NCBI GenBank assembly: GCA_051294905.1 | Contig: CM119371.1 | Span: 1 to 64,000 of the forward strand | Direction: 5' to 3' | Length of the DNA stretch: 64,000 nucleotides | Source of the DNA: Botryllus schlosseri | Lineage: Eukaryota | Shown: piece by piece, positions 1 through 44,000 of the stretch | How positions within the stretch are numbered: position 1 is the stretch's first letter | How the letters are laid out: the number at the start of each line of letters is the position of its first letter | The notes under the pieces: generated by a model | The model's input: only the letters and a program-made list of their open reading frames with translations | Told to the model about the DNA's origin: nothing | Databases searched by the model: none | Made by a program: the position numbers and the translations under genes

Positions 1-44
1 CTGCTAATGATATATACGTCATAATAGATCGTATTGACCCGATG

Positions 45-975
45 AACTGGTACATGATTTCAATGATTATTAAAAATATTTTTAATAATATTGTTTATGA
101 ATTCGTTTGAATACGTTCACTGTTATAATCTATATGATTTCAATGATTAGTAAAAATAATTGAAATAAATCTCACAAAGTAATAATATAAAATTTGGCTA
201 ATATTGTGAATATCTAACAATCGTGAAAATAGCAAGTATCTCATGTTGATGAAAAAAACAGCCCACGTTGTTAGAGAACCAAAACATGATTTTAATATGT
301 TTTAAATATTCCATTTTTTAAAAATATTAATACATTGGTTCTAACTTTGGAATAATAATTATTATATTGTTTTCATTATTCATTGAAATCATTGTCGCTT
401 ATAACGGTGAACATCTTTTTAATAATATTGTTGCTTTGTAAATATCTTATTGATTTTAGTTAAATTATCGATTATCTTGTGTTGTTGATGAATTAGTTTG
501 TACAAAAGACGTTCACTGTTATAATCTACATGATTTGAATTTTAATAAAACAATTTTCGGTTTATTCGCAATCATATGCTCATGTATGCGAAACTGGTAT
601 TGCTTTTACATCGCAAATTTAAAAAGGGATTCTAATATCGAGAAAGTGTGCCAGGATCTCAAGGGAGCTCTATGCGTTGTTCTGAACGATTAGTAAATGT
701 CGAGAAAGTATGTCAGGATCTCAAGGGAGCTCTACGCGTTGTTTTGTTGTGAATATGTTATCATTGCGAAATTAGCAATTATCTCGTGTTGTTGATGAAA
801 ATATTCAGCTTACGTTGTTATAAGCACCACAACATGATTTAAATATGTTTAAAATATTCCATTTTTTAAATAATATTACTTTGGTTCTAACTTTGGAATA
901 ATAATAATTATTATTAATAATATTTTTTCATTATTCATTGAAGTCATTGTAGCTTATAACGGTGAACATCTTTTG
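45..975. repeat. Degenerate AT-rich repeat modules in both orientations plus a 62-bp-period tandem duplication (639-743); mirrored at about 12990-13920
   Basis: GTTCACTGTTATAATCTA..ATGATTT occurs near 115, 510 and 1800, with its reverse complement (..TTATAACGGTGAAC) near 400 and 955. CGAGAAAGT..CAGGATCTCAAGGGAGCTCTA occurs at 639 and 701. Confidence 0.8.
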
Positions 976-3900
976 TACAGCAAGCTCCAAGTTTAATTAG
1001 AATTAGAGCAACACAAAATTCCAACACCTCGCAACTCTCATGAAAGTGCATCGTATCATTACACAATATTAAACTTCATTCAATAATCAACATTTCATTG
1101 TGACGTCATAAATTCGTATTTTAAATTCTTTGTGATGAGATGAGATTGTTTGATATGCAAGTCGCGCATGAAGCAGATCTGTCCACCCTGTACTATAGTA
1201 ATGTGTTAAATGTGTACTCAAATGTATATTGTGAATAAGACCAGTTACGCTCCAGCTACCGTGTTTGTTAACCCATTGTGAAATGTCTGACGCCATATCT
1301 TCACCGTCACACTTATACTCAACGCGAACGCTATATTGAAGCTTAATTTCTTTATGTAGTACGTGCAAACATATGATGTGTCTCTCTCAATTTACTTTCA
1401 AAATTCATATGATACAACAGCATGGACTCTGAATGCCACTTGCAACATATGTATATGTATTTGTATGATAATATTAGAAACAGCTGGCCTCTATAGGGAA
1501 TTAACTGAATACATTCATTGCCGATGGATAGTGTCGCAGTACCTTACCGTATGCACTACAAAACGCTATCATTTTACAGTATTAATGAGACACAAACCAA
1601 AGTAAAATTATCAAAAAATTGACTAATATTATGAATATCTTATGATTTTGAGTTAAATTAGCCATTTTCTTGTGTTGTTATTGTTTCACTATCACTGATT
1701 ATTCTAATAATATTGTTGCTTTGTGAATATCGTATCAATTTTTTGTTAAATTATCAATTATCTTGTGTTGTTGATGAAAATAATTCGCTTGTATAAAATA
1801 CGTTCACTAATATAATCTACAGGATTTCAATGATTATTAAAAAATAAGCTAATGCAAGTTTCCAGAATGCTGATGCTGGCTATGCTATTGGAGCCTTTTC
1901 AAATAGAATACGCAGTACGATTATCGATGGTGGATGCAAAACAATCCTAATTCTCAACAAATTTTAATTGTCTCGGAATCATACCTATTGCGATATCAAC
2001 TCTCCGCATTTTGTTGTATTTAGGGCTATTGCACAAGCTATCTCCAATATGCTGCAATATAGACTGGTTCAAACTTGTCTAGGGTATTCACTTCCCGTCA
2101 ACTAGTTTTTCAAGACGCATTAATAAGCGCGCGTATTTAATTACCTAATCGTTGGATGAATATTCCTGGCAGGCATAGATGTCCCCAGGGAACCGAGCTA
2201 ACTTCGCTTCTATTCTTTTTACATTGTTTGCAAAGCACGGGTATTTTGTGATTCCATTAGACTTCAATGGTTCTAGAATACTAAATTAATGAGAGTTGAA
2301 TAAACCGTCAATTAATTTAGCATAAAGCATATGATATTCATATTACTTAGAGCTTACGTCGTTGAACAACCCTGATATGATCATACGGCGAAAGTATAGC
2401 CCTAAATAGCGGTAATATCTCCTAAGTATAAAAATACCGTACCATTGCAAATTTATCTCTAAACAGAATGATCTGTAGCCTGTCGCATTCGAATTACTGA
2501 GCAGAATTGACATAGAACTATTAAGCAAAGCTGAAACATCTTCACTTCAGTTATCATTCCCTTGAGACTACTAGTTATAGCAGAGGCAGACAAACTGTGA
2601 TTTGCGGTTGTAGCACTTCAATGAGTTCATGTGCGTTTCGCCATTTTGTTAAAGAAGTTTAACCTGATTATATATTAATGCATTTATAGCGTATTAGCAA
2701 TATGCGAATGGTGGCTGTGGCGCTACAGGGTTCAAAATTAGCAATTGAACTCTCGAATTGAACCTGATCATCAATCAATGACAAATCATTGTGCTCAACG
2801 CTATTTTTATGTGGTTCACTGATTCACAACTTTTACTGATCCACAAAGCACTTACGTTAGTCTTAAAACCCTCGCTGAACCACAAATTTTCGCTGAGTCA
2901 TAAAACAAAAAATCTGGCAAAATATACATTCAACTACACATCTAATACTTTACTATAGTACAGGGGTGGGCAGAGCTGCTTCATGCGCGAGTCGCATATC
3001 AAAAATCTTATCTTTAAAAGAACCACAACACAAAAATCCAACATATGGATTTATGACGTCACAAGGAAATGTAGGCTATCGAATGAAATTTATTATTGTG
3101 TGATGATAGGATGCGCAATTGTGCATACACGAGGGTTCTAATTCCAATCTAGTTTGGAAAAACTATGTAGCTCTAAGTCAAATTCTAATCTAGTTCTATT
3201 CAACCTGTTTCAGTTACACACGCTTTTCAGAGACACTGCGAGCTTCACGGATTTTTAAATTTTCAAAATTAGGATTGATCGATAAATATGATACTATTTA
3301 TCACTTGTATAAATATCACTGTGATATCAATCCAAGCTTATGCGGCTTTGTAATAATTGGTTGTTTAGCAAAATCAATATTATGCTCAAATTATATCAGA
3401 TATCGCATTGAATATAGCTAATCAAATTGTTATTACATATTAGTAGCTGCAGTCGGATTTCAACATAACGACCAATTTCGATGCACATGCTACGTTTTCG
3501 AAACGACTACATTATCCTATTCGATAGCTGGAGATATCAGTATTGTCTTCTAATGACTCGAGTCATTACAATCCTGCTAATGGATTTCTAATTTAAACTT
3601 TGACTTGGACTTATCGATCAAGTAGGTAGTGGGGGTACCTGGTTTTGTTACCAGCCTCGAGGCTATATTCTTTGGCAGCGATGAGGCTATTTATGTTCAT
3701 CGCTCAGCACTTGACTATGGTGATGTGTATTTAGCACTATGTATTGATAATTACTTGCTTCCGAGAAATAAATAACATTCATTATACGTTAGATGATACT
3801 TTCCACAGATATTCTATTATGTGTTTTGAGACTACGGCGAGTTGATAATATTAATGCGTACACTTTCAAGAAATAAGGACGTTGCTAACATTCAGATTTT

Positions 3901-4319
3901 GCGTAAATTTCGCGTGATCAACTATGTACGATTTTTGTGTATTTCAGACTATGTATGTTCATTGTTCATGTTCACGAAGACTGCGGTATCGCATGGATAA
4001 ATGCATCATCACTAATAAATTACTTGAATGCGACTCGATAACATTTATCCCTTGTAACGTACTCAAACATGATTTTAGGTGTATTTAGGACTATTTATGT
4101 TCCTGAGATCTTTGATAGCGCAATGATTCGGTATGATTTCTATATTATTCCACTCTCGTTATTGGACTGCGGTGTGACGCTGAGCCTATCTCGATGCCCG
4201 GGCTTCCGCATTAACTTTTTTCGATTTCTTCTGCCTTATGTAGATTTAACATAAGGAAAGTTATTTCACTCATAAAATTTGAAATACGTATTTGCTCGAG
4301 TTAAAGCCATAACGCTTGG

Positions 4320-5013
4320 AGTGAAATTTACGAGGTTTTCGTTAATATTCAACTGGGCTAATTTCGAAATGTAAATTGAAAAACTCAAATATCGCATAGT
4401 AGGACTTCGCAAATTTTCGATATATTTTTGCTATTTTTTCATGGTGACAAGTCATTCGGAACGGTGAAATGCATTATAGGAAATAGATGAAACTGGTTCA
4501 ATTCATCAAGACCCCTGATAAAAGTACATTGGATTTCAACATTTTATTAGCAGGTAATCGAAATACCACAAACTGGGCTAACCTTCGGAGTTGTTAAGTA
4601 AAGAAGTACTCGTACTTCTTCGGAGTACCCAATACTCTCAAGTCCTTATTATATTGGAGTGCTTCAACTTCATGATAGTTATAGTATTAAGCAGAAATAT
4701 ACCTGGAGTACTAATGTTTTACTTACTCGGAAATGACTACTTCTGTCTTATTTTAAAGGATTCCTCGCTCGACGCGAAATTTTATTAGGTTTTGAATAAT
4801 ATCCAACATGTAGGTTCACTTTGAAGGGTACTTCGTAAAACTCAAATATTGTACAGTGAGAGTTCGCAAATTCTCGATGTATTTTTTGGTATTTTAATTG
4901 CGGTAAGTCATTCTGCAGCGCGAAAATGCATCGTAGGATATAGATGAAACTGACACCGCTCACCAAGACCACTGGACCACTGAAAAAAGTACATTTCAAT
5001 ATTTTAGTAGCAG
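4320..5013. repeat. Diverged direct duplication (~4320-4555 and ~4775-5013), mirrored in the right arm
   Basis: Shared blocks AAAACTCAAATAT, TTCGCAAATT, AAGTCATTC, ATAGATGAAACTG and AAAAGTACATT occur in the same order. Confidence 0.8.
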
Positions 5014-6169
5014 TAAATTCCTAGTAAAGTATAAGAAGTGATGATTTCCGAGTGAGTTAAAAAGTAAGTATTGAAGGTATAGTTTGGTCGAAAACCGAAA
5101 ACTCTGAAATAGAAGTAGATGCAGTGTAAAAAGTTAATCACTTGATTAAGTATAGCGCAAGCGGAACAAACCTATACTTGAGTACTCCAAAATGTACAAG
5201 TACTTCGCTATGGACTCCCTCCACGTAAAAAGTGACTAGGTTTTAGACTACTTTATCGGTACTTGACAGTTTCAGTTTTAGACAAAATTTGGAATAAAAA
5301 CTAGCTCATTCACTCACTTGGAAATCTCTTCTTTAACCTGTACTTGAGCGTAGCAAGTAAATCTCATTTATTATTAATTCTACACGTACACTTGACCATA
5401 TTTTATGACTTACATAATTACTTTTCACTATATTTGAAGTCAAGTCTGTCAAATATCAGTATATGTTACGATGAGCTTATATTCGTTCTGTTTGATCATC
5501 TTGACTAACGATATTCACGCGGCGAGCTCTCCAGTGATAGCCTTGGGACTTGGAACAGTGTTATATGACATCATAGCGACACGAGGTTACGACAGTTTAG
5601 AATTAGCTACCTTACGACACCAAATTTCGTTAGTTCATCTCCACCTTCAAATATTGTGTTATAAAAATATTGTGTATACGCAACAAATACATATATGGCT
5701 TTGTTGTTGCAATCTTCAGAAAAAGTACTTCCCTCAGTAAGCAATTTCTCGTAGGCTATGCATATGCATACAAACGAGGACAGTTACATCAATGAGTGGT
5801 ACCTTGTTGTATTAAGTAGCTAGTAATTAGTGCATGTAAGTCCGCAGCTACTGTTCAAGACCTTTTCCGCGTTTTTGCCAAGCATCCTCGTAAGGACAGA
5901 CAGTCCCAATCAGCTAATGTAAGTGTGTGTGTGTAGGCCTATGTATGTATGAGGGGTCTTATGCCGGTTGACGAATGAAGTTGGTCGTCTATTCTATTCC
6001 GAAATAATCAAGTTAGTGGTTTTTAACAGGACCTGACCTCATAGAAACGTCAGTAGAATAACTTATAACTCCTCATGTTTACTCAAGTAAATCTAATTTG
6101 ATAATCATGTACTGAATCTTAATTTTCAAACGAGTTCAAATTTAACTCTAACTTATGAGATTAAATATA

Positions 6170-6870
6170 ATAACTTTTCACGTTGCAGCGTATTTTACAG
6201 CATGAGCCAAGTGATTTCATAATTAACACAAGATAATTAAATGAATTTCTAGAGGATTTTAAGATATTCGTGTCATCCTCCTTCGTATATCATAAAAGAA
6301 TACCTACTTCAGTCGATTTGTAATTATTTGCGCTGTGTTTGATCAACTCAATCATGTTGCAGTGTTTTAATAACGAAACTCTTTTACAGCATAAACCAAA
6401 TAATTTCATAATAAACACAAGCTAATTGAATGAATTTACTCAAATGTAGTATGCCGCGCTGATAAGATTAATTATAATATACTTATCGTGCTACAGTGAT
6501 TTTCAATAACGAAACTCTTTTACAGCACAAGCTAAGTAATTTCATAATAAGCATAAAATACCCGGTGTCCTTCATTTGTACTTATTTGCAGTCGATATTG
6601 TTTATATCCAATTCAGTCTTAGTTTGGTTATTGAGCTCATAAGGATTTTCACTTCATCATGATCCGTAAGTACTAATTGATGATACATCCTCTTTTCAGC
6701 TTGAAGATGTGAACTATAAAATGTTGTATACCGCGCTGATGAGATTAATTATAACATACTTATCATGTTACAGTGGTTTTTCAATAACTAAACTCATTTA
6801 CAGCATAAGCAGAGTAATTTCATAATAAACATAAAATACCTGCTGTCGATGATTTGTACTAATTTGTGGC
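6170..6870. repeat. Degenerate tandem repeat next to the palindrome centre (4 partial units)
   Basis: TTTACAGCA....ATTTCATAAT recurs near 6195, 6385, 6520 and 6795. Confidence 0.8.
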
Positions 6871-9800
6871 GTGTACAATTAACTCAAGCAGCTCTAAAAC
6901 ATAGGAAGCAGGGCGATGGGTATTCGTAGAGTTGAATAAACATAAAAAATATTTCCGCGTCCTTCTAGGTTGTAGGGTTAGGAATAATTAGGTTTAGTAG
7001 GGCGCGGAAATATTTTTTATGTTTATTCAACTCTACGAATACCCATCGCCCTGCTTCCTATGTTTTAGAGCTGCTTGAGTTAATTGTACACGCCACAAAT
7101 TAGTACAAATCATCGACAGCAGGTATTTTATGTTTATTATGAAATTACTCTGCTTATGCTGTAAATGAGTTTAGTTATTGAAAAACCACTGTAACATGAT
7201 AAGTATGTTATAATTAATCTCATCAGCGCGGTATACAACATTTTATAGTTCACATCTTCAAGCTGAAAAGAGGATGTATCATCAATTAGTACTTACGGAT
7301 CATGATGAAGTGAAAATCCTTATGAGCTCAATAACCAAACTAAGACTGAATTGGATATAAACAATATCGACTGCAAATAAGTACAAATGAAGGACACCGG
7401 GTATTTTATGCTTATTATGAAATTACTTAGCTTGTGCTGTAAAAGAGTTTCGTTATTGAAAATCACTGTAGCACGATAAGTATATTATAATTAATCTTAT
7501 CAGCGCGGCATACTACATTTGAGTAAATTCATTCAATTAGCTTGTGTTTATTATGAAATTATTTGGTTTATGCTGTAAAAGAGTTTCGTTATTAAAACAC
7601 TGCAACATGATTGAGTTGATCAAACACAGCGCAAATAATTACAAATCGACTGAAGTAGGTATTCTTTTATGATATACGAAGGAGGATGACACGAATATCT
7701 TAAAATCCTCTAGAAATTCATTTAATTATCTTGTGTTAATTATGAAATCACTTGGCTCATGCTGTAAAATACGCTGCAACGTGAAAAGTTATTATATTTA
7801 ATCTCATAAGTTAGAGTTAAATTTGAACTCGTTTGAAAATTAAGATTCAGTACATGATTATCAAATTAGATTTACTTGAGTAAACATGAGGAGTTATAAG
7901 TTATTCTACTGACGTTTCTATGAGGTCAGGTCCTGTTAAAAACCACTAACTTGATTATTTCGGAATAGAATAGACGACCAACTTCATTCGTCAACCGGCA
8001 TAAGACCCCTCATACATACATAGGCCTACACACACACACTTACATTAGCTGATTGGGACTGTCTGTCCTTACGAGGATGCTTGGCAAAAACGCGGAAAAG
8101 GTCTTGAACAGTAGCTGCGGACTTACATGCACTAATTACTAGCTACTTAATACAACAAGGTACCACTCATTGATGTAACTGTCCTCGTTTGTATGCATAT
8201 GCATAGCCTACGAGAAATTGCTTACTGAGGGAAGTACTTTTTCTGAAGATTGCAACAACAAAGCCATATATGTATTTGTTGCGTATACACAATATTTTTA
8301 TAACACAATATTTGAAGGTGGAGATGAACTAACGAAATTTGGTGTCGTAAGGTAGCTAATTCTAAACTGTCGTAACCTCGTGTCGCTATGATGTCATATA
8401 ACACTGTTCCAAGTCCCAAGGCTATCACTGGAGAGCTCGCCGCGTGAATATCGTTAGTCAAGATGATCAAACAGAACGAATATAAGCTCATCGTAACATA
8501 TACTGATATTTGACAGACTTGACTTCAAATATAGTGAAAAGTAATTATGTAAGTCATAAAATATGGTCAAGTGTACGTGTAGAATTAATAATAAATGAGA
8601 TTTACTTGCTACGCTCAAGTACAGGTTAAAGAAGAGATTTCCAAGTGAGTGAATGAGCTAGTTTTTATTCCAAATTTTGTCTAAAACTGAAACTGTCAAG
8701 TACCGATAAAGTAGTCTAAAACCTAGTCACTTTTTACGTGGAGGGAGTCCATAGCGAAGTACTTGTACATTTTGGAGTACTCAAGTATAGGTTTGTTCCG
8801 CTTGCGCTATACTTAATCAAGTGATTAACTTTTTACACTGCATCTACTTCTATTTCAGAGTTTTCGGTTTTCGACCAAACTATACCTTCAATACTTACTT
8901 TTTAACTCACTCGGAAATCATCACTTCTTATACTTTACTAGGAATTTACTGCTACTAAAATATTGAAATGTACTTTTTTCAGTGGTCCAGTGGTCTTGGT
9001 GAGCGGTGTCAGTTTCATCTATATCCTACGATGCATTTTCGCGCTGCAGAATGACTTACCGCAATTAAAATACCAAAAAATACATCGAGAATTTGCGAAC
9101 TCTCACTGTACAATATTTGAGTTTTACGAAGTACCCTTCAAAGTGAACCTACATGTTGGATATTATTCAAAACCTAATAAAATTTCGCGTCGAGCGAGGA
9201 ATCCTTTAAAATAAGACAGAAGTAGTCATTTCCGAGTAAGTAAAACATTAGTACTCCAGGTATATTTCTGCTTAATACTATAACTATCATGAAGTTGAAG
9301 CACTCCAATATAATAAGGACTTGAGAGTATTGGGTACTCCGAAGAAGTACGAGTACTTCTTTACTTAACAACTCCGAAGGTTAGCCCAGTTTGTGGTATT
9401 TCGATTACCTGCTAATAAAATGTTGAAATCCAATGTACTTTTATCAGGGGTCTTGATGAATTGAACCAGTTTCATCTATTTCCTATAATGCATTTCACCG
9501 TTCCGAATGACTTGTCACCATGAAAAAATAGCAAAAATATATCGAAAATTTGCGAAGTCCTACTATGCGATATTTGAGTTTTTCAATTTACATTTCGAAA
9601 TTAGCCCAGTTGAATATTAACGAAAACCTCGTAAATTTCACTCCAAGCGTTATGGCTTTAACTCGAGCAAATACGTATTTCAAATTTTATGAGTGAAATA
9701 ACTTTCCTTATGTTAAATCTACATAAGGCAGAAGAAATCGAAAAAAGTTAATGCGGAAGCCCGGGCATCGAGATAGGCTCAGCGTCACACCGCAGTCCAA

Positions 9801-12800
9801 TAACGAGAGTGGAATAATATAGAAATCATACCGAATCATTGCGCTATCAAAGATCTCAGGAACATAAATAGTCCTAAATACACCTAAAATCATGTTTGAG
9901 TACGTTACAAGGGATAAATGTTATCGAGTCGCATTCAAGTAATTTATTAGTGATGATGCATTTATCCATGCGATACCGCAGTCTTCGTGAACATGAACAA
10001 TGAACATACATAGTCTGAAATACACAAAAATCGTACATAGTTGATCACGCGAAATTTACGCAAAATCTGAATGTTAGCAACGTCCTTATTTCTTGAAAGT
10101 GTACGCATTAATATTATCAACTCGCCGTAGTCTCAAAACACATAATAGAATATCTGTGGAAAGTATCATCTAACGTATAATGAATGTTATTTATTTCTCG
10201 GAAGCAAGTAATTATCAATACATAGTGCTAAATACACATCACCATAGTCAAGTGCTGAGCGATGAACATAAATAGCCTCATCGCTGCCAAAGAATATAGC
10301 CTCGAGGCTGGTAACAAAACCAGGTACCCCCACTACCTACTTGATCGATAAGTCCAAGTCAAAGTTTAAATTAGAAATCCATTAGCAGGATTGTAATGAC
10401 TCGAGTCATTAGAAGACAATACTGATATCTCCAGCTATCGAATAGGATAATGTAGTCGTTTCGAAAACGTAGCATGTGCATCGAAATTGGTCGTTATGTT
10501 GAAATCCGACTGCAGCTACTAATATGTAATAACAATTTGATTAGCTATATTCAATGCGATATCTGATATAATTTGAGCATAATATTGATTTTGCTAAACA
10601 ACCAATTATTACAAAGCCGCATAAGCTTGGATTGATATCACAGTGATATTTATACAAGTGATAAATAGTATCATATTTATCGATCAATCCTAATTTTGAA
10701 AATTTAAAAATCCGTGAAGCTCGCAGTGTCTCTGAAAAGCGTGTGTAACTGAAACAGGTTGAATAGAACTAGATTAGAATTTGACTTAGAGCTACATAGT
10801 TTTTCCAAACTAGATTGGAATTAGAACCCTCGTGTATGCACAATTGCGCATCCTATCATCACACAATAATAAATTTCATTCGATAGCCTACATTTCCTTG
10901 TGACGTCATAAATCCATATGTTGGATTTTTGTGTTGTGGTTCTTTTAAAGATAAGATTTTTGATATGCGACTCGCGCATGAAGCAGCTCTGCCCACCCCT
11001 GTACTATAGTAAAGTATTAGATGTGTAGTTGAATGTATATTTTGCCAGATTTTTTGTTTTATGACTCAGCGAAAATTTGTGGTTCAGCGAGGGTTTTAAG
11101 ACTAACGTAAGTGCTTTGTGGATCAGTAAAAGTTGTGAATCAGTGAACCACATAAAAATAGCGTTGAGCACAATGATTTGTCATTGATTGATGATCAGGT
11201 TCAATTCGAGAGTTCAATTGCTAATTTTGAACCCTGTAGCGCCACAGCCACCATTCGCATATTGCTAATACGCTATAAATGCATTAATATATAATCAGGT
11301 TAAACTTCTTTAACAAAATGGCGAAACGCACATGAACTCATTGAAGTGCTACAACCGCAAATCACAGTTTGTCTGCCTCTGCTATAACTAGTAGTCTCAA
11401 GGGAATGATAACTGAAGTGAAGATGTTTCAGCTTTGCTTAATAGTTCTATGTCAATTCTGCTCAGTAATTCGAATGCGACAGGCTACAGATCATTCTGTT
11501 TAGAGATAAATTTGCAATGGTACGGTATTTTTATACTTAGGAGATATTACCGCTATTTAGGGCTATACTTTCGCCGTATGATCATATCAGGGTTGTTCAA
11601 CGACGTAAGCTCTAAGTAATATGAATATCATATGCTTTATGCTAAATTAATTGACGGTTTATTCAACTCTCATTAATTTAGTATTCTAGAACCATTGAAG
11701 TCTAATGGAATCACAAAATACCCGTGCTTTGCAAACAATGTAAAAAGAATAGAAGCGAAGTTAGCTCGGTTCCCTGGGGACATCTATGCCTGCCAGGAAT
11801 ATTCATCCAACGATTAGGTAATTAAATACGCGCGCTTATTAATGCGTCTTGAAAAACTAGTTGACGGGAAGTGAATACCCTAGACAAGTTTGAACCAGTC
11901 TATATTGCAGCATATTGGAGATAGCTTGTGCAATAGCCCTAAATACAACAAAATGCGGAGAGTTGATATCGCAATAGGTATGATTCCGAGACAATTAAAA
12001 TTTGTTGAGAATTAGGATTGTTTTGCATCCACCATCGATAATCGTACTGCGTATTCTATTTGAAAAGGCTCCAATAGCATAGCCAGCATCAGCATTCTGG
12101 AAACTTGCATTAGCTTATTTTTTAATAATCATTGAAATCCTGTAGATTATATTAGTGAACGTATTTTATACAAGCGAATTATTTTCATCAACAACACAAG
12201 ATAATTGATAATTTAACAAAAAATTGATACGATATTCACAAAGCAACAATATTATTAGAATAATCAGTGATAGTGAAACAATAACAACACAAGAAAATGG
12301 CTAATTTAACTCAAAATCATAAGATATTCATAATATTAGTCAATTTTTTGATAATTTTACTTTGGTTTGTGTCTCATTAATACTGTAAAATGATAGCGTT
12401 TTGTAGTGCATACGGTAAGGTACTGCGACACTATCCATCGGCAATGAATGTATTCAGTTAATTCCCTATAGAGGCCAGCTGTTTCTAATATTATCATACA
12501 AATACATATACATATGTTGCAAGTGGCATTCAGAGTCCATGCTGTTGTATCATATGAATTTTGAAAGTAAATTGAGAGAGACACATCATATGTTTGCACG
12601 TACTACATAAAGAAATTAAGCTTCAATATAGCGTTCGCGTTGAGTATAAGTGTGACGGTGAAGATATGGCGTCAGACATTTCACAATGGGTTAACAAACA
12701 CGGTAGCTGAACCGTAACTGGTCTTATTCACAATATACATTTGAGTACACATTTAACACATTACTATAGTACAGGGTGGACAGATCTGCTTCATGCGCGA

Positions 12801-14064
12801 CTTGCATATCAAACAATCTCATCTCATCACAAAGAATTTAAAATACGAATTTATGACGTCACAATGAAATGTTGATTATTGAATGAAGTTTAATATTGTG
12901 TAATGATACGATGCACTTTCATGAGAGTTGCGAGGTGTTGGAATTTTGTGTTGCTCTAATTCTAATTAAACTTGGAGCTTGCTGTACAAAAGATGTTCAC
13001 CGTTATAAGCTACAATGACTTCAATGAATAATGAAAAAATATTATTAATAATAATTATTATTATTCCAAAGTTAGAACCAAAGTAATATTATTTAAAAAA
13101 TGGAATATTTTAAACATATTTAAATCATGTTGTGGTGCTTATAACAACGTAAGCTGAATATTTTCATCAACAACACGAGATAATTGCTAATTTCGCAATG
13201 ATAACATATTCACAACAAAACAACGCGTAGAGCTCCCTTGAGATCCTGACATACTTTCTCGACATTTACTAATCGTTCAGAACAACGCATAGAGCTCCCT
13301 TGAGATCCTGGCACACTTTCTCGATATTAGAATCCCTTTTTAAATTTGCGATGTAAAAGCAATACCAGTTTCGCATACATGAGCATATGATTGCGAATAA
13401 ACCGAAAATTGTTTTATTAAAATTCAAATCATGTAGATTATAACAGTGAACGTCTTTTGTACAAACTAATTCATCAACAACACAAGATAATCGATAATTT
13501 AACTAAAATCAATAAGATATTTACAAAGCAACAATATTATTAAAAAGATGTTCACCGTTATAAGCGACAATGATTTCAATGAATAATGAAAACAATATAA
13601 TAATTATTATTCCAAAGTTAGAACCAATGTATTAATATTTTTAAAAAATGGAATATTTAAAACATATTAAAATCATGTTTTGGTTCTCTAACAACGTGGG
13701 CTGTTTTTTTCATCAACATGAGATACTTGCTATTTTCACGATTGTTAGATATTCACAATATTAGCCAAATTTTATATTATTACTTTGTGAGATTTATTTC
13801 AATTATTTTTACTAATCATTGAAATCATATAGATTATAACAGTGAACGTATTCAAACGAATTCATAAACAATATTATTAAAAATATTTTTAATAATCATT
13901 GAAATCATGTACCAGTTCATCGGGTCAATACGATCTATTATGACGTATATATCATTAGCAGTAATCTTTGACATATTCAATCTACAGCGTACAGCGAATA
14001 ATCATGTAATAAATATTACACGTTATATATTGCCTTGCACTTGCTTCAACTGCAATAACAAAGG

Positions 14065-14765
14065 CAATCAACGCAATATTGACGTAATCATATCTCAGCG
14101 TTACTAAAGTAATCAACTAGGCATATGATGTAATCATTACTGAACATGCTTCAACTGCAATACGCAATCATAATGACGTAAATATTTCTCAGTGTTATTG
14201 GACTGGAACTAGACGCAATCATGACGTAATCATATCTCAGCATTACTGGAACTAAACAATCACGCTCTCGAAATAACTAAAGTAATCAACTCCGCATATG
14301 ACGTAATCAATACTGTACGTGCTTTAACTGCAATACGCAATCATATTGAAGGTAATCAACCTACGTAATAATGACGATATAATATCTCAGCGTTACTGGA
14401 CTGGGACTATGACATCTCTCACACAACCAAAACCTCTCTCGTATTGGAACCACGCATATGACGTAATCATGAACATGAACAACTACACAATCATAATGAC
14501 GTAAATATTTCTCAGTGTTATTGGACTGGAACTAGACGCAATCATGACGTAATCATACCTCAGCATTACTGGAACTAAGCAAAGACGCTCTCGAAATAAC
14601 TAAAGTAATCAACTACGCATATGACGTAATCATGAACATGCTGCAATACGCAATCATATTGAAGGTAATCAACTTACGCAATGACGTAATAAATATCTCA
14701 GCGTTACTGGACTGGAACTATGGCATCTCTCGCACAACCAAAACCTCTCTCGTTTTGGAACCACA
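14065..14765. repeat. Subterminal tandem array (higher-order period about 323 bp) rich in TGACGTAA
   Basis: CAATCATAATGACGTAAATATTTCTCAGTGTTATTGGACTGGAACTAGACG occurs at 14165 and 14488. Nine exact TGACGTAA copies counted by eye. Confidence 0.9.
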
Positions 14766-14850
14766 CCCACTTCGTTCTGCATTCTGATTGGCTAACAGAT
14801 GTCACGTGATCAAATACTCGACGGTGATTGGGGCGCGTATAAACCCTGTG
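14760..14850 (-). promoter_or_regulatory. Terminal motif cluster: two CCAAT boxes, E-box CACGTG, GGGTGTGG box
   Basis: The plus strand has CCACACCC (14761), GATTGG (~14786 and ~14826) and TCACGTGA (~14802). Function is inferred. Confidence 0.45.
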
Positions 14851-14862
14851 TATAATACTACT

Positions 14863-15173
14863 GTCCTGCTTCTTGATCGGTAGGTCGTGGGTTCGATTCC
14901 CGGCCGGGGTCAGACCAAAGACCTGATTAGTAACACTGGTATCCATGGCTTCCCTGCTTGGCGCTCATGCATTAGGCTACTGGGATAGCATGGAGGGGTG
15001 GTGCATGACTTAGAAAGCTGTAAAGGCTATATCTGCACTTCCTTGTCCAGCGGCATATGCACATCATGTACTCATGGTATGCATATGCGCAGATCGCGTG
15101 TATGTGTATCATGAGTCGGTGTATATGCCGCAAAAACATCAAGGACAAAAATAAACTACGTCCTTTCCTTTCC
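14863..15173 (+). mobile_element. tRNA-derived SINE (MetaSINE-like core from memory) missing its 5' A-box
   Basis: B-box GGTTCGATTCCC, then GGGTCAGACCAAAGAC...CTTCCCTGCTTGGCGCTCATGCATTA, and a 3' (CCTTT)n tail. Confidence 0.75.
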
Positions 15174-15174
15174 T

Positions 15175-17130
15175 AGCTAACGCGCTTGACATGGGTTTGT
15201 CAGTAGGGCTGGGCAAAATCGAGTACCTGAGTGATTCGATTCTGAATCACGTAATATGCTTCGAGTCGAGTCGAGTAATCGAGTACCAACAATTATGACG
15301 TCATAACAGAATGTAATGCGTCAAAGTTCAAATATGTACCGTTTATGCCACCACAAATAATATAATGCCTGTTATCCATCTCATAAATGATACTTTGGTA
15401 TTTTTCGGACCATATCGATTTCATTCCACTTGGTGACAATGTTGTGAGATTATCATGACTTCGTAAATGTGCTATACGTCCAGTAACCTTCGTAGGTTTG
15501 TACTATATGTTTCGTATGCTACGATACCCCCAATCAAGGTTTCAAGGTTTCAACAGTGAAAATTAGTATCGAAACTATAATTCTCATAGATAAATTAACT
15601 TTCAGCGGCCAGAAGCGCAAAATTTCAGTACTCGAAAAGTACTGTTCAGTACTACTCGACTCGAATCATTAAAATTAACACTCGATTCAGATTTGAGTAC
15701 TCGAATCATTGTGCCCAGCCCTAGTTGTCAGCAAATGGCTTGAAAGCCACAATTTTACGGTGAAATTAACATATATAAAATATAAAATAAAGTAAATATT
15801 TGAATGCAAACCAAAAATCTTAGTAAACTGTTTCATGAGATCATCATCTCATCACCTATCTCAGTAAGAAACACACAGTTAAAATTAGCACAGACCAACA
15901 CCGGCTTTTGCGTAATATCCGCAATGCGGTGGTCAGCGTTAGGCCTACCATACTCGAACTCGATAATGATATTACTGCCCTAATCCTTGAGTGTCAACCT
16001 CGGGACTTGGCACAGCGATCGATACTGAAATCAAGATATACCGTCCAAAATCTCAGGACCGATATAGGTATGGAGTATTATTATTATTATTATAGATGGT
16101 AAAAAGGGAAGTGGCGCATATCACCGATAAAGGTCTGGTGCACCACGTGCAAGGTTAATCGTAAAGAATAATCAATTCAGGACAAATACAAATGAAAAGG
16201 CTGAGAAAATCATAGCAATACGTTACAAGAATCCACGAATTCGATGACCACCGTAAAAAGTAGCGGGTTAACTAAAAGGTTATAAGTACTGAACGCAAGA
16301 TGTAGTCCCTCACAATACTGTTTTACCGTGCGTCTATGGTGAGCGTATTTACAGCAAATCGATAGAGACCAATACCGGCATTGCGTAAAATCTATTGGTG
16401 ATAAATGGCGAGTCAGCTCTCACTCGACTTGGGAAACGAAATTACCACCCACATACTTCAGTGATAAGCATAAAAGTTGGTACGGTGCTGGATACGAACA
16501 CGAAGAATACCTATGCCAAATATTATGACCGATCTCGGTATGGAATATCGTCAAAATCAATGGAGACCAATACCCGCTTTTGAGTAAAATCTGTTTGCGA
16601 TACATGACGGATCAGCACACAGTTAACCCTGAAACTTGGAGCAGTGTTAAATACGATCGTCACGACATAACAACCCAAGTTTAAAGAATTATCATCGTGC
16701 GAAACATCGTCAAAATCGACCTATACCAGCAAAGGTCGACTCAACGCATATGACGGAAACCGAGCTCAGATATAGATACGATTGTTACATCACACCTTAG
16801 GGGCAACCAGGCAAGGTTGCCCCACTAGCTCGGTAATTTTCTTTATTGTGCGCGTCTTTGAGAGAACAGACAGTGAAAGCTTGTTATGAGCGCTAACGGG
16901 GCAAGCCCCGGCTAGGCATTCACAAAGAGAAAACACGGAAGAGAATTCGATTTTCGCAGAGACTTCGCTAGGTATGGGCATTTACAAGCGAAAGCATAAG
17001 AATAATGCGGGTTCCGCTGTGATTTCGGTATATATTGACTTCTGTACGCCTATAGATGGTATATAGGTGTTATTGAACAGAATTTTAGGAGAGCAATGCC
17101 GCAGTTGCCCTATAGGACGAGCCACCACTG
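15175..17130 (-). repeat. Dispersed repeat with an internal ~190-bp tandem array; inverted homolog at 45529-46760
   Basis: Collinear similarity, e.g. GATATAGATAC.ATTGTTACATCACACCTTAGGGGCAACC. Both copies end in CAGTGG(C/T)GGCTCGTCCTATAGGGCAACTG. The unit motif ACCAATACCGGCTTT.GCGTAAAAT is repeated. Confidence 0.8.
15204..15723 (+). mobile_element. hAT-type MITE (second copy 47271-47758)
   Basis: TIR TAGGGCTGGGCA/TGCCCAGCCCTA; 8-bp TSD tttgtcag/gttgtcag; TCGAGT subterminal repeats. Confidence 0.9.
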
Positions 17131-41003: not shown

Positions 41004-44000
41004 GTAAGTAACCGATTTGGTCGTTCTACGTATATCTCGAAGTTGGCAAATCAAGATTTGGATTTCGACTGGTATCAAATGTAATCGTAACTCAAGCGCA
41101 GAGGTGAAATAAAATTTAAAAGTTCGCTATCAAATATGATGACAGAAGGAAGAAATATAGCGTTATGATATTCATTTATCATGCCTGATGAGTCTTATTC
41201 ACCAACCTTCTGAGGTCGTGAGAGGTAATAAACCTATATTCAAATTCTCGCCCGCTTTTGTTAGTATGTAGAAGGCCCATGCAGCTAGGCTATACGCTGA
41301 ATTAGACTTGAATGGGTGTGTCAGACTAACTGTGGGACTACAATATCATTCCAAAGGGTTGTTTACAGTGGATGTGTTGATTACCGCGTTGTTGTCGATA
41401 CCATATGGCAGGTAATTACTCTGATATTAAATATATATGGTTGCGAGGAAATGGAGCGGTCTACATTTACTGCTTATCGTTCATTGCGTAATATGCATAT
41501 CGGCGTTTGGTTTATATTAGTGGTACGCGTAACACTATAGTGGTACGCGAGAGCTTTTTAGGTGGTACGCGAAGAGTGCTGTGAGTAATATAATACCTAA
41601 GATTGGCGAGCTTCTGCACAAGAAAAAGTTGGAATTATCTCATTTTCATAGAAATCGCAGAGGTGATGACCACCAATCGCAGATCATTTGAAAAAGAGAG
41701 TAAGGCATTTACCCTTCAAAATCCATCGCAACTCGCAGTGCAGCTATATAACTTCCCGAATACTTCGTACAGTTCTCAAAGCGCACAATAAACCAAACTT
41801 TTCAAGACCGACATTTCCTTGTAATTTCGGAGAATAGTAAAGTAACCACAATGTTGGTAATTCGCTTACTTGTACTGATGCTTAAAATGCGACTAGAAAA
41901 TGGTAAACGTGAGGATAATTAGTATATTTTAAATGTGAATATTCGATATAACCAAACAGAGTTATAATGAGTCGCTTTAACAATACTTTATTTCGAAACG
42001 GAGCAGTCAATGCTATGACTTGGAATCGGACTCGAGTCATAATAGCACGACTCAGACTCGACCGTTAATTAGCTGACTTGGACTCGGACTCTACTCGGTG
42101 GTGAATTAAAATGACTCAACTTGACTCGAGTCAAAACTATTGAAGTGAGATGGGCTTGTGACTCGGAGCCTTGCGACTTGGTTACAAACCAGAATTTCAC
42201 CGCCAAATTTTATAGCCAGCGCTCCTCCAATCGCCTATTTAATGGTCAGCGCCCCACGCCCCCTTCATCCTCGCGAGCGACTCCAGAGGCGATCGCGCCC
42301 ACTTTCGCACCATCCGAGGTTAGGTGTGCGACGTCTCAACTAAATCTACATATGCCTACTTGACTACTTTTCGGACATTCATATTCGACTTCCTCTTAAA
42401 GTATTTTAAACATGTCTTGTAAATGTATGCCTTTATACTTGCAACAGAGAAGCACGTTTCGGCGTTAACTCTGTTTCTATGTGAGTAGAAACTGTGATTA
42501 CATTTACTATCTCTGATGATCATCTGATCTTGTTTAGGGTGTATGTAGGTAGCCCGAACAGCAATGCAGATGAAGAAGAAACGGGAGGTCAAAGAGATGG
42601 TTCTGTTTACTATTGCCCGATTCAAGATAAACCTGAAAAGGTCAACGGCCATTGTAGGAACCTCAACCTCATGAACAATAATGACAGCGATGGAAAGGGT
42701 GAGTTTTAGAAGATAAGGTATTTTGAGAATCACTAAGAGGGAGGATAAACTTACTTTTCTGTGTGTACAGAGTAATGAAGATAGGACCACGCAGCTTGAC
42801 TGGTCCTCAGTCATTGAGCCATCGAGTACTCTGACGCATAAGGGTTGATATAATGAAACAAAACACAAATATAAGTGATACCAAGTCACTGCAAACCGGG
42901 CAAGAATAAAATTGTCAAGCAATCAAAACCAATCAATTCATAAAATTGAAAATAATGTTTAGTAGCCTACTAGCAGATATGATCACTAAAAAAGTAACAC
43001 TTCTACTTTTCTGTAATCCACATCAGGCCGTTTTTAGACTCCTTGCACTTCTATTCAACAGTTTCTAAAACAAAATTACCAACAGTTTCGCTACACACTT
43101 ATATTTGCGCGTTTTGTATTTTGTAAAGTGGTTAATAAATCGTGGGAAGTTTTACATCACTTTTAAAAGTATAACTCATGATCATCGATAGAAATAGTCT
43201 TTGTGTCCCGGTATCTGAATATTTTTCCGAACGTGAACATATTTACGTTGTCATTATAGTCATTTTGCCCAAACCGTGAACGTGCACATTTCAATATCAA
43301 GTTGATTAACTATACTGAAAGTGTGATACGCTTCTGCCAAGATGTGAAACTATTTTTATGATTACTTCTGAGACTTCTCGCTTTTGGTATATTTCTCGTA
43401 TTTGAATAAAAAATCGTGGTATTAGTTCTATTTCTATTTCTATTTTAATAACAATCCTGACTGTAGCCTATATCCAGTACTATAACGTTGCATATATAGT
43501 ACACACATTGTGTTACACAGTATCCAAGGGCCTCTTCTAGTAATGGAAGATGTTTCATCCAACCTCCATAGTGGAGTCCACATCCATCAGTATCACATGA
43601 TAGGTCCCCAAGAAAATTTGTGTGATATTGTGTTTTTCTATGTAACCTCAAACTAGGCTAAAGTCAAGATATCGTTGCGATCTAAAATGTTCAGTCCGAC
43701 TGTGGATTTACATTAAGCCCACCTCAATTTAACAGCTTAATTTTAAATGAAACCATTGTGTATTGCATATTAAACTTAGACATTGCTTATCTCTACCAAG
43801 TTGGAAAGTTCAGAAATCTATGACCGGCGAGATGACGCTGGCGTGCCACAGTATGGGAGCCAATGATCTAACTATCCCGAATTATTCCCAGCTAATCACT
43901 CCACGTTGCTGAGTGTTGACTTCGAAGGATATCAACCATTGAAGCAGATGATTGATATAGATGATTTCAACTGGACTGAACACCAAGGAGAGACACAGAC

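What the first reader, a model, noticed from the sequence alone, without database searches (positions are those of the whole stretch)
1..14862. A ~15.8-kb non-coding fold-back Polinton/Maverick-like element that is essentially one hairpin
Seen: arms of at least 6959 bp that are nearly identical, a 43-bp spacer, then a subterminal array and the end ...TATAATACTACT (AGTAGTATTATA on the minus strand) that truncates a SINE. Established: Polintons have AG-starting termini with short tandem repeats, 6-bp TSDs, TIRs usually at most about 1 kb, and protein-primed replication. Inference: this is a snap-back defective genome with ~7.86-kb arms and no genes, made by template switching and integrated in trans, analogous to snap-back defective genomes of linear DNA viruses. 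Prediction: the mirror end lies about 900 bp upstream of window position 1, starts AGTAGTATTATAC, and is preceded by GTCCTG (the TSD) and the SINE's missing A-box head.
Basis: partly seen in the sequence, partly recalled or inferred. Interest (0 to 1): 0.8.

Follow-up and report, generated by a model that had tools for sequence, protein, structure and literature searches.

The report
Gene-less palindromic Maverick/Polinton parasite family
The window starts inside one copy of a roughly 15.8-kb gene-less mobile element that is a single giant DNA palindrome carrying the ends of a virus-like Maverick/Polinton transposon, and similar copies with the same ends sit at a dozen or more other places in this animal genome.

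Summary
Window 1-6967 and 6995-13961 are inverted copies with 4 mismatches around a 27-nt loop. The right end ...TATAATACTACT at 14862 cuts a SINE.

The window is the first 64 kb of contig C1, so the contig starts inside the left arm and the predicted left end cannot be seen here. This is still not an assembly artefact. Fourteen other loci with paired ends were examined. [quoted passage not shown] In the nine copies compared (window plus eight loci), the two arms are 99.65-99.94% identical. Copies differ from each other by 0.4-3.3% in the segments compared.

A 17.8-kb autonomous Maverick shares the terminus (78 of 80 bases). It encodes a protein-primed polymerase, an integrase, a packaging ATPase and a double-jelly-roll capsid protein. 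Homology beyond its 254-bp inverted repeat exists only with its right end, and both fold-back arms carry that stretch.

Best reading: a non-autonomous, snap-back-type Maverick derivative, moved in trans and now a diversified family. Substitutions and indels are mirrored in both arms. Clean copies stay at 14.5-16.9 kb.

The snap-back origin, a hairpin replication intermediate and a packaging size limit are inferences.

The parts
1..6967 (.). Left arm of the palindrome. The contig start cuts it off, so its outer ~901 bp and terminus are missing.
   Evidence: Reverse complement of 6995-13961 with 4 mismatches. Window = C1:1-64000.
6968..6994 (.). 27-nt non-palindromic central loop GGTTGTAGGGTTAGGAATAATTAGGTT. 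It is rich in TAGG (telomere-like) and flanked by the inverted ATATTTCCGCGxCCT / AGGGCGCGGAAATAT stem.
   Evidence: The same loop or a close variant, in either orientation, sits at the centre of 10 other copies. There are 5 TAGG in the 43 nt around it, and only 0.18% of 43-nt windows of the element reach 4 or more.
6995..13961 (.). The part of the right arm that is mirrored within the window.
13962..14862 (+). Outer 901 bp of the right arm. This is the Maverick-type terminal region, homologous to the right end of the autonomous helper.
   Evidence: Window 13910-14453 and 14448-14862 match helper locus L029 8916-9521 at 87-92%. Both arms of complete paralogs carry this region.
14080..14764 (+). 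Subterminal array: a ~322-bp tandem duplication carrying 9 copies of TGACGTAA.
   Evidence: 9 of 11 window matches, 2.5 expected by chance. (14158-14453 vs 14480-14764, 89.6%).
14848..14862 (+). Terminus ...GTATAATACTACT, i.e. an (ACT)2 end, which reads AGTAGTATTATAC on the minus strand.
   Evidence: Homology to the C15 sibling ends exactly at 14862. The same ends occur on 14 paired-end loci and on the helper. The (AGT)2//(ACT)2 motif is described for Mavericks in PMC8097293 (passages read).
14863..14868 (+). GTCCTG, the right-hand copy of the predicted 6-bp target-site duplication.
   Evidence: Intact SINE copies read ...GGTTAAGC|GTCCTGCTTCTTG.... The left copy cannot be seen because the contig starts inside the element.
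14863..15170 (+). 3' part of a tRNA-related SINE whose 25-nt head was separated from it by the insertion.
   Evidence: 2,754 first-look candidates; all 40 scored are 95-100% identical. (3 of 3 full copies carry the head).
13861..14001 (-). Relic of the first 47 codons of the helper's Death-domain ORF.
   Evidence: tblastn, 64% identity, E 1.5e-15. The Death domain in the helper ORF was identified.
10848..12914 (.). ~2.07-kb internal segment bounded by ~190-bp inverted repeats (10848-11044 / 12729-12914). It is mirrored at 1048-3114 in the left arm and may be a nested element.

Best explanation
The window holds one copy, cut by the contig start, of a family of non-autonomous Maverick/Polinton derivatives. 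Each member is a single long palindrome: two ~7.9-kb arms, a conserved ~27-35-nt loop, no genes, and a Maverick terminus at each tip.

Shown here:
- Many copies were inserted as units, with 6-bp target-site duplications.
- Both tips carry the sequence of the right end of a co-resident 17.8-kb autonomous Maverick. That element encodes pPolB, integrase, packaging ATPase and capsid protein.
- Substitutions and indels that distinguish copies are mirrored in both arms.

Inferred:
- A founder arose when a replication product holding only the helper's right end folded back and was copied into an inverted dimer. That gave it two identical, integrase- and polymerase-competent ends. This is a snap-back defective genome.
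- The helper's pPolB replicates the element from the AGTAGT ends (protein-primed, with jumping back), and the helper's integrase inserts it.
- Each displaced single strand folds into a full hairpin. Mismatch correction in that hairpin, and occasional renewed fold-back copying, keep the arms alike.
- The steady length of 14.5-16.9 kb (81-95% of the helper) reflects a size requirement of capsid packaging.
For: 1. The structure is real and repeated.
- Arms in the eight two-arm loci compared are 99.65-99.94% identical; the window's arms have 4 mismatches in 6,967.
- Head-to-head centre junctions occur at 27 loci, 21 of them with at least 249 nt on both sides. This is among the 40 candidates scored out of 599.

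2. Transposition as a unit.
- Perfect 6-bp TSDs at 11 of 14 paired-end loci: C13, C2, C11, C4a, C15, and 6 of 9 further loci. The other three match at 4, 5 and 4 of 6 positions.
- All have AGTAGTA...TACTACT ends.

3. A helper exists.
- C4:1877888-1895721 has the same terminus (78 of 80 bases), a 254-bp TIR and TSD TCGGTT.
- It encodes an rve+chromo integrase and an A32-type ATPase.
- Its 1,314-aa ORF has homologs at E down to 9e-189, 40% identity and full coverage, most of which carry PF03175.
- Its 443-aa ORF gives a model (pLDDT 84) that matches the Sputnik, PBCV-1 and mavirus major capsid proteins at E 1e-14 to 6e-16.
- Twelve loci carry this ATPase/integrase class with open frames. Seven of them lie ~8.7 kb from a single terminus hit.

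4. Both arms come from one helper end. Homology beyond the 254-bp TIR exists only with the helper's right end, and it includes the first 47 codons of the helper's Death-domain ORF.

5. The arms evolve together.
- Copies differ by 0.4-3.3% (up to ~65 sites in 2.2 kb) while arms within a copy differ by 0-0.44%.
- Indels are mirrored: a 178-bp insertion in C1b, a 633-bp deletion in C4a, a central deletion in C2 and C11, and a replaced mid-arm in C16.
- The C6 subfamily has ~69% of the arm unalignable to the window's arm, yet it is again symmetric.

6. Published features (passages read): PMC8097293 gives 6-bp TSDs, the (AGT)2//(ACT)2 end motif and its link to jumping-back in protein-primed replication.

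7. Length. Ten complete copies without visible secondary insertions measure 14,480-16,904 bp, and the window copy would be 15,763 bp. The helper is 17,834 bp. The C6 and C15 copies return to ~15.73 kb once their one-arm insertions are subtracted.
Against: - The window copy itself cannot be verified at its left end. The contig begins inside the arm and the predicted left junction is not in the assembly.
- Only ~31% of the arm is recognisably related between subfamilies, and only the outer ~1-3 kb resembles the helper. A simple 'one end of the helper folded back' origin does not account for the inner ~4.9 kb.
- Whole-arm regeneration at every cycle is contradicted by the sibling copies C2 and C11. 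Two sites that differ between arms are inherited by both copies, while one site is mirrored in C11 only. Homogenisation is therefore sporadic or patchy, and chromosomal gene conversion cannot be excluded for it.
- Large one-arm insertions persist (C15, C6).
- Length outliers exist: 10,754 bp, 23,542 bp, and a 25,599-bp double-centre form with a perfect TSD. Lengths of related copies are also not independent observations.
- No extrachromosomal, terminal-protein-linked or encapsidated form has been observed.
- The public runs gave only contigs of ~100-300 nt, so they carry no long-range information.
Confidence: 0.85

Rival explanations
1. Assembly artefact: a fold-back chimeric long read produced a false inverted duplication at the end of contig C1.
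For: The contig starts inside the left arm. The arms are almost identical. The predicted left junction is absent from the assembly. The public runs gave only short contigs, so no spanning reads could be examined.
Against: The same architecture lies inside chromosome-scale contigs at 14 other paired-end loci with unique flanks, 11 of them with perfect 6-bp TSDs. Arms carry private mismatches and one-arm insertions. The near-identical sibling on C15 is complete, with both ends and a TSD. The window's content is what a real copy would show.
Confidence: 0.03
2. The elements are mobile Maverick derivatives, but arm identity is kept up in the chromosome by intra-palindrome gene conversion, as in sex-chromosome palindromes. 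On this view the palindrome arose by a host inverted duplication, not by viral snap-back replication.
For: One substitution is present in both arms of C11 but in neither arm of its sibling C2, while other arm differences were left alone. That is a short-patch pattern.
Against: In the sibling pairs (C2/C11, window/C15), arms within a copy are no more alike than arms of different copies, as expected if arms simply diverge after insertion. Eleven of the 15 variable sites are private to a single arm. Mirrored large indels and a mirrored replacement of ~69% of the arm are hard to obtain by short-patch conversion. Both tips are the same helper end, which a replication fold-back explains directly.
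Confidence: 0.1
3. A member of another DNA-transposon group with long inverted repeats (Foldback/Galileo-like or another cut-and-paste family) that only resembles Mavericks at its tips.
For: Very long inverted repeats built partly of internal repeats, and no genes.
Against: The terminal ~415 bp are 91-92% identical, and the first 80 bases 78/80 identical, to an element that encodes pPolB, integrase, ATPase and a capsid protein. The 6-bp TSD and (AGT)2 ends are the Maverick signature (PMC8097293, passages read). No transposase relic was found.
Confidence: 0.02

Closest known systems
Maverick/Polinton self-synthesising transposons (polintoviruses)
   Same: 6-bp TSDs, the (AGT)2//(ACT)2 end motif and inverted termini. 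The terminus is shared with a co-resident autonomous element that encodes pPolB, an rve integrase, an A32-type ATPase and a DJR capsid protein (PMC8097293 and PMC10748475, passages read).
   Different: The fold-back has no genes at all. PMC5499653 (passage read) states that all Polintons by definition encode pDNAP and integrase. Its inverted repeats are ~7.9 kb and make up the whole element, whereas the cited papers report TIRs of 46-1,447 bp (PMC8097293) and 100-1,500 bp (PMC10748475).
Snap-back defective viral genomes
   Same: Almost complete self-complementarity around a short loop and no coding capacity, as defined in the review PMC13506859 (passages read). Both tips carry the same parental end. 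Presumed dependence on a helper.
   Different: Those are replication by-products found in virus stocks. Here the form is integrated in a host germline, multi-copy, diversified into subfamilies, and mostly made of sequence unrelated to the helper. The adenovirus case with long inverted repetitions (Daniell and co-workers) is recalled. I saw only the citation Daniell & Mullenbach 1978 in the reference list of PMC13506859, and that paper was not held.
Helper-dependent ('gutless') adenoviral vectors with stuffer DNA
   Same: Only the terminal cis elements are kept, the rest is non-coding filler, and the length stays near that of the helper genome.
   Different: That system is man-made and not palindromic. 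The packaging size window of such vectors is recalled, not checked in any call.
Foldback (FB) elements of Drosophila and other long-TIR DNA transposons
   Same: Very long inverted repeats that contain internal repeats. Many copies have no coding sequence.
   Different: The ends, the TSD length and the partner element here are Maverick-type. FB features are recalled, and no sequence comparison with FB elements was made.

Membership tests
Maverick/Polinton (non-autonomous derivative) | 6-bp target-site duplication | tested here: met
   Perfect at 11 of 14 paired-end loci. The other three match at 4, 5 and 4 of 6 positions. The window copy shows only its right-hand GTCCTG.
Maverick/Polinton (non-autonomous derivative) | Repeated end motif, 5'-(AGT)2 // (ACT)2-3' | tested here: met
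   AGTAGTATTATAC... or AGTAGTAGTATAC... at every end examined. The motif is as described in PMC8097293.
Maverick/Polinton (non-autonomous derivative) | Terminus shared with an autonomous element encoding pPolB, integrase, ATPase and capsid protein | tested here: met
   Helper at C4:1877888-1895721. Terminus 78/80 identical, 91-92% over ~415 bp. Genes identified. No protease was identified.
Polinton in the strict sense | Encodes its own protein-primed polymerase and retrovirus-like integrase | tested here: not met
   No ORF over 100 aa. Eight arm ORFs had no Pfam match above the curated cut-offs. No tblastn match to helper pPolB, integrase, ATPase or capsid protein at E<1e-3.
Polinton in the strict sense | TIRs of about 0.05-1.5 kb flanking a unique core | tested here: not met
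   Arms of 7,868 bp separated by 27 nt, with no unique core.
Maverick/Polinton (non-autonomous derivative) | Protein-primed replication from the termini | not testable with these tools
   Only the AGT repeat at the ends, (AGT)2 in some copies and (AGT)3 in others, fits a jumping-back start.
Snap-back defective viral genome | Near-complete self-complementarity, short loop, no coding capacity | tested here: met
Snap-back defective viral genome | Both halves derived from one end of the parental genome | tested here: inconclusive
   The outer ~950 bp, plus patches up to ~3 kb in, match only the helper's right end. The inner ~4.9 kb has no counterpart in the helper copy examined.
Snap-back defective viral genome | Replication and packaging dependent on, and interfering with, a helper | not testable with these tools
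   No expression, episome or particle data. The public runs gave only short contigs.
Assembly fold-back artefact | Confined to a contig end, with no independent copies, no TSDs and no private differences between arms | tested here: not met

The most novel reading that the evidence does not exclude
These elements are natural 'gutless' Maverick genomes: defective-interfering-type palindromes that persist as a heritable lineage. On this reading three features are direct read-outs of the Maverick life cycle. The near-helper length is held by capsid packaging even when two thirds of the arm is replaced or the centre is lost. The mirrored evolution of the arms reflects a single-stranded full-hairpin replication intermediate. 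The telomere-like loop may record healing of a broken replication product. If so, they are in-genome evidence that animal Mavericks replicate by protein-primed strand displacement and pass through virions.
Probability: 0.3. Interest if true: 0.85.

Novelty: new variant of a known kind. Interest (0 to 1): 0.66.

Why it matters
Mavericks/Polintons are thought to be viruses that replicate by protein priming, but neither their replication nor their particles have been observed directly in animals.

A gene-less parasite of a Maverick keeps only what is needed in cis. Here that is ~0.9 kb of terminus with a TGACGTAA array, two identical ends, and a near-genome length. This marks out the candidate origin and integration signals. 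It also gives testable predictions about strand-displacement replication (hairpin intermediates, homogenised arms) and about a packaging size limit.

Long, nearly perfect palindromes of 15 kb are also fragile and hard to assemble. Here one coincides with the end of a chromosome-scale contig whose other end reaches a TTAGGG telomere.

My three literature searches turned up no description of a whole-element palindromic Maverick derivative. Repeat libraries such as Repbase or Dfam and subscription journals could not be searched.

Tried and rejected
- Own-genome search with PF03175 found nothing, but the control genomes did not ring either. I discarded it as uninformative. The polymerase was identified instead through homologs carrying PF03175 and an Atlas lead.
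- phmmer of the 1,314-aa ORF against PDB sequences gave only weak zinc-finger noise (best E 0.04).
- Pfam on the capsid candidate and other helper ORFs gave no match. The Atlas lead to DJR-like clusters was followed by a structure model and fold search.
- Tandem Repeats Finder reported no array in 6900-15000. The ~322-bp duplication was seen only by BLAST self-comparison.
- The pattern search for the predicted left junction found 0 matches. This says only that the junction is not assembled.
- Public runs offered only Logan contigs, mostly ~100-300 nt. Arm sequence is present in four runs of four studies of the same organism, but nothing can be said about the centre, the junction or spanning reads.
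- Midpoints of C11:10.71M and C3:3.14M are not palindromic. One search shows that the midpoint of C11:10.71M lies inside one arm, so that element is asymmetric rather than lacking a fold-back. I did not resolve either one.
- One further midpoint stretch came back as N and was not pursued.
- ARAGORN found no tRNA in a full SINE copy.
- The search of earlier findings returned nothing in three look-ups.
- Kapitonov & Jurka 2006 and Daniell & Mullenbach 1978 are not held. What I say of them is recalled or taken from citing papers.


Full report
**What is in the window**

Positions 1-6967 and 6995-13961 are reverse complements with four mismatches, separated by a 27-nt loop that is not itself palindromic. 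The next 901 bp (13962-14862) hold a subterminal array and end in ...GTGTATAATACTACT. The array is a ~322-bp tandem duplication. It carries nine TGACGTAA motifs, which is 9 of the 11 matches in the whole window against 2.5 expected.

From 14863 the sequence is the 3' part of a very abundant SINE. Three of three full copies carry a 25-nt head directly before GTCCTG, so the element sits inside a SINE.

The arm has no plausible gene. The longest stop-to-stop frame is 100 aa. Eight arm ORFs have no Pfam match above the curated cut-offs. tblastn with all ORFs of two Mavericks finds only relics of frames from the helper's right end, the clearest being the first 47 codons of its Death-domain ORF.

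**The contig start**

One search shows that the window is C1:1-64000. The assembly therefore begins inside the left arm. The outer 901 bp look unmirrored only for that reason. The predicted left junction is absent from the assembly, so that prediction cannot be tested on this copy. The far end of C1 reaches a TTAGGG telomere and this end does not. The assembly simply broke in the palindrome.

**Why it is nevertheless real**

The same sequence occurs elsewhere as plus/minus pairs 13-16 kb apart.
- I fetched eight such loci. In each, the two arms are 99.65-99.94% identical and run almost to a common centre.
- Ends and flanks were read at 14 paired-end loci. All have AGTAGTA...TACTACT ends. [quoted passage not shown] The other three match at 4, 5 and 4 of 6 positions.
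- Homology between the window copy and its near-identical sibling on C15 stops exactly at 14862, and the flanks differ.
- Head-to-head centre junctions were listed at 27 loci, 21 of them with at least 249 nt on both sides. Only 40 of 599 candidates were scored, so these are lower bounds.
- Arm sequence is also present in short contigs of four public runs from four studies of the same organism. Those contigs are too short to say anything about long-range structure.

**The partner element**

Seven single hits of the terminal 463 bp (88-91% identity) each lie ~8.7 kb from an A32-type ATPase match and ~10.5 kb from an integrase match. I read one of these in full, C4:1877888-1895721.
- It is 17,834 bp long, with a 254-bp TIR, TSD TCGGTT, and a terminus identical to the fold-back's at 78 of 80 bases.
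- It encodes an rve+chromodomain integrase and an A32-type ATPase.
- Its 1,314-aa ORF has homologs at 40% identity, full coverage and E down to 9e-189, most of which carry PF03175 (Atlas lead).
- Its 443-aa ORF gives an AlphaFold model (pLDDT 84.3, pTM 0.82) that matches the major capsid proteins of Sputnik, PBCV-1 and mavirus at E 1e-14 to 6e-16, and viral capsid proteins in BFVD.
- It also carries Bcl-2, BIR, Death-domain and UQ_con ORFs.
- Twelve loci hold this ATPase/integrase class with open frames, so the helper family looks young.

Barreat & Katzourakis (PMC8097293, passages read) describe 6-bp TSDs, the (AGT)2//(ACT)2 end motif, TIRs of 46-1,447 bp and sizes of 12.7-24.6 kb for intact vertebrate Mavericks. 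They link the end repeats to jumping-back in protein-primed replication.

**How the fold-back relates to the helper**

The arm matches the helper's left end only within the 254-bp TIR. It matches the right end for a further ~350 bp, and in patches up to ~1.4 kb in from that end. These matches are spread over the outer ~3 kb of the arm, between AT-rich repeats. The match includes the start of the helper's Death-domain ORF. Both arms of every complete copy carry this right-end sequence. The element therefore has two 'right ends', which is what a fold-back copy of one genome end gives. The inner ~4.9 kb has no counterpart in the helper.

**Concerted arms**

In a 2.2-kb and a 1.4-kb segment, copies differ by 0.4-3.3% in substitutions. 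Arms within a copy differ by 0-0.44%.

Indels are mirrored too:
- a 178-bp insertion in both arms of the C1:8.15M copy;
- a 633-bp deletion in both arms of C4:4.49M;
- a central deletion in both arms of C2 and C11;
- a replaced mid-arm in C16.

The 19-kb C6 element shares only the termini, the innermost ~630 bp and a few patches with the window arm, about 31% in all. Its arms are still 99.9% identical and ~7.82 kb long once two one-arm insertions are subtracted.

The loop, or a close variant, is conserved in either orientation in 11 copies including the window's, the diverged C6, C9 and C16 among them. The C1:3.29M copy has a different loop, placed ~630 bp further out.

**How homogenisation works is not settled**

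The siblings C2 and C11 have different TSDs and near-identical sequence. They vary at 15 sites over ~7.56 kb:
- 11 sites are private to one arm;
- 2 are shared by one arm of each copy, so the master's arms already differed there and both arms were copied faithfully;
- 1 is present in both arms of C11 only;
- 1 is ambiguous.

The element is therefore copied as a whole palindrome. Symmetrisation is sporadic and at least sometimes local. Within these sibling pairs, arms of one copy are no more alike than arms of different copies. That fits simple divergence after insertion rather than ongoing chromosomal conversion. Large one-arm insertions persist, for example the 16.57-kb Maverick-type insertion in C15 with TSD TGTAGT and the two 1.6-kb insertions in C6.

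**Proposed mechanism (inference)**

A replication product holding only the helper's right end folded back at a short inverted repeat and was copied into an inverted dimer. This gave it two identical ends that helper polymerase and integrase can use.

In protein-primed strand-displacement replication, every displaced strand of such a molecule folds into a full hairpin. Mismatch correction there, and occasional renewed fold-back synthesis from one arm, would mirror both substitutions and large changes.

The model of a single-stranded racket-shaped intermediate for Polintons (Kapitonov & Jurka 2006) and the adenovirus defective genomes with long inverted repetitions (Daniell and co-workers) are recalled. 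Neither paper was held. The definition of snap-back defective genomes comes from PMC13506859 (passages read).

**Length**

- Ten complete copies without visible secondary insertions measure 14,480; 14,884; 14,887; 15,164; 15,227; 15,227; 15,565; 15,796; 16,222 and 16,904 bp. The window copy is predicted at 15,763 bp.
- C6 and C15 return to ~15.73 kb after subtracting their insertions.
- The helper is 17,834 bp.
- Outliers are 10,754 bp, 23,542 bp, and a 25,599-bp double-centre form.

Non-autonomous DNA transposons usually shrink. These stay at 81-95% of helper length even when most of the arm is replaced or the centre is lost. I read this as a hint of a packaging constraint. The copies are related, the census is incomplete, and no particles have been seen.

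**Novelty**

Three full-text searches found no description of a whole-element palindromic or fold-back Maverick/Polinton derivative. The only use of 'non-autonomous polintons' found concerns Tlr1 (PMC5499653, passage read). Repeat libraries and subscription journals were not searchable.

I class the finding as a new variant of a known kind.

Noticed in passing
L028/L029 = C4:1876300-1896100 (helper); L025/L026 = C11:4506100-4526000 (a second Maverick family): The Mavericks of this genome carry apoptosis-related cargo. The helper has Bcl-2, BIR, Death-domain and ubiquitin-conjugating-enzyme ORFs. The C11 element has BIR, caspase and UQ_con ORFs. The helper's pPolB has an N-terminal C2H2 zinc-finger region, as do many homologs.
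   Followed up: partly
whole genome G000: The genome is very rich in Mavericks. There are 150 matches to one A32-type ATPase (150 of 235 candidates scored) and 144 to one integrase (144 of 770 scored). They fall into about four identity classes, and most have open frames.
   Followed up: no
window 6960-7002; C1:41837632-41838261 and beyond: The loop and its borders are TAGG-rich and resemble degenerate TTAGGG repeats. The host telomere repeat is TTAGGG, and contig C1 has such an array at its far end but none at the window end. A broken end healed by telomerase before fold-back is a speculative origin for the loop.
   Followed up: partly
C4:27229361-27254959 and C11:8545034-8569171: Two larger forms (about 25.6 kb and 24.1 kb) each hold two palindromic centres ~10 kb apart. 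The C4 form has a perfect TSD, GTAAGG. They could be higher-order fold-back products or later rearrangements.
   Followed up: partly
C15:22389393-22405966 (L041, L042): The near-identical sibling of the window copy carries a 16.57-kb nested element in its left arm only. That element has AGTAGTTAGAT...ATCTAACTACT ends and TSD TGTAGT, so it is another Maverick-type insertion. Its content was not examined.
   Followed up: partly
C1:3286665-3302229 (L032, L050, L051): This fold-back has a different loop (TGATTAACTCAATCATTAACTCAATC). Its centre maps to window position ~7607-7619, so it lacks the innermost ~630 bp of each arm. It is still 15,565 bp long and has a perfect TSD, CGATTG.
   Followed up: partly
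L024 7389-8988 (C6:10025789-10027388): The insertion in one arm of the C6 fold-back is itself a ~1.6-kb palindrome with 739-bp arms at 99.7% identity. Its ORFs give only sub-threshold GIY-YIG hits.
   Followed up: no
L028 1142-1588 and L029 9522-9723 (flanks of the helper copy on C4): This helper copy is inserted into an AT-rich repeat that is 80-91% similar to the outer arm region of the fold-back (window ~12100-13830). This is either a preferred target or a nested insertion.
   Followed up: no
window 14863-15170 and 15324-15474, 16356-16634, 60150-60759: The SINE interrupted by the element is very abundant (2,754 first-look candidates). The rest of the window holds only short dispersed and inverted repeats and one stop-to-stop frame over 180 aa (42356-42922, minus strand).
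   Followed up: no
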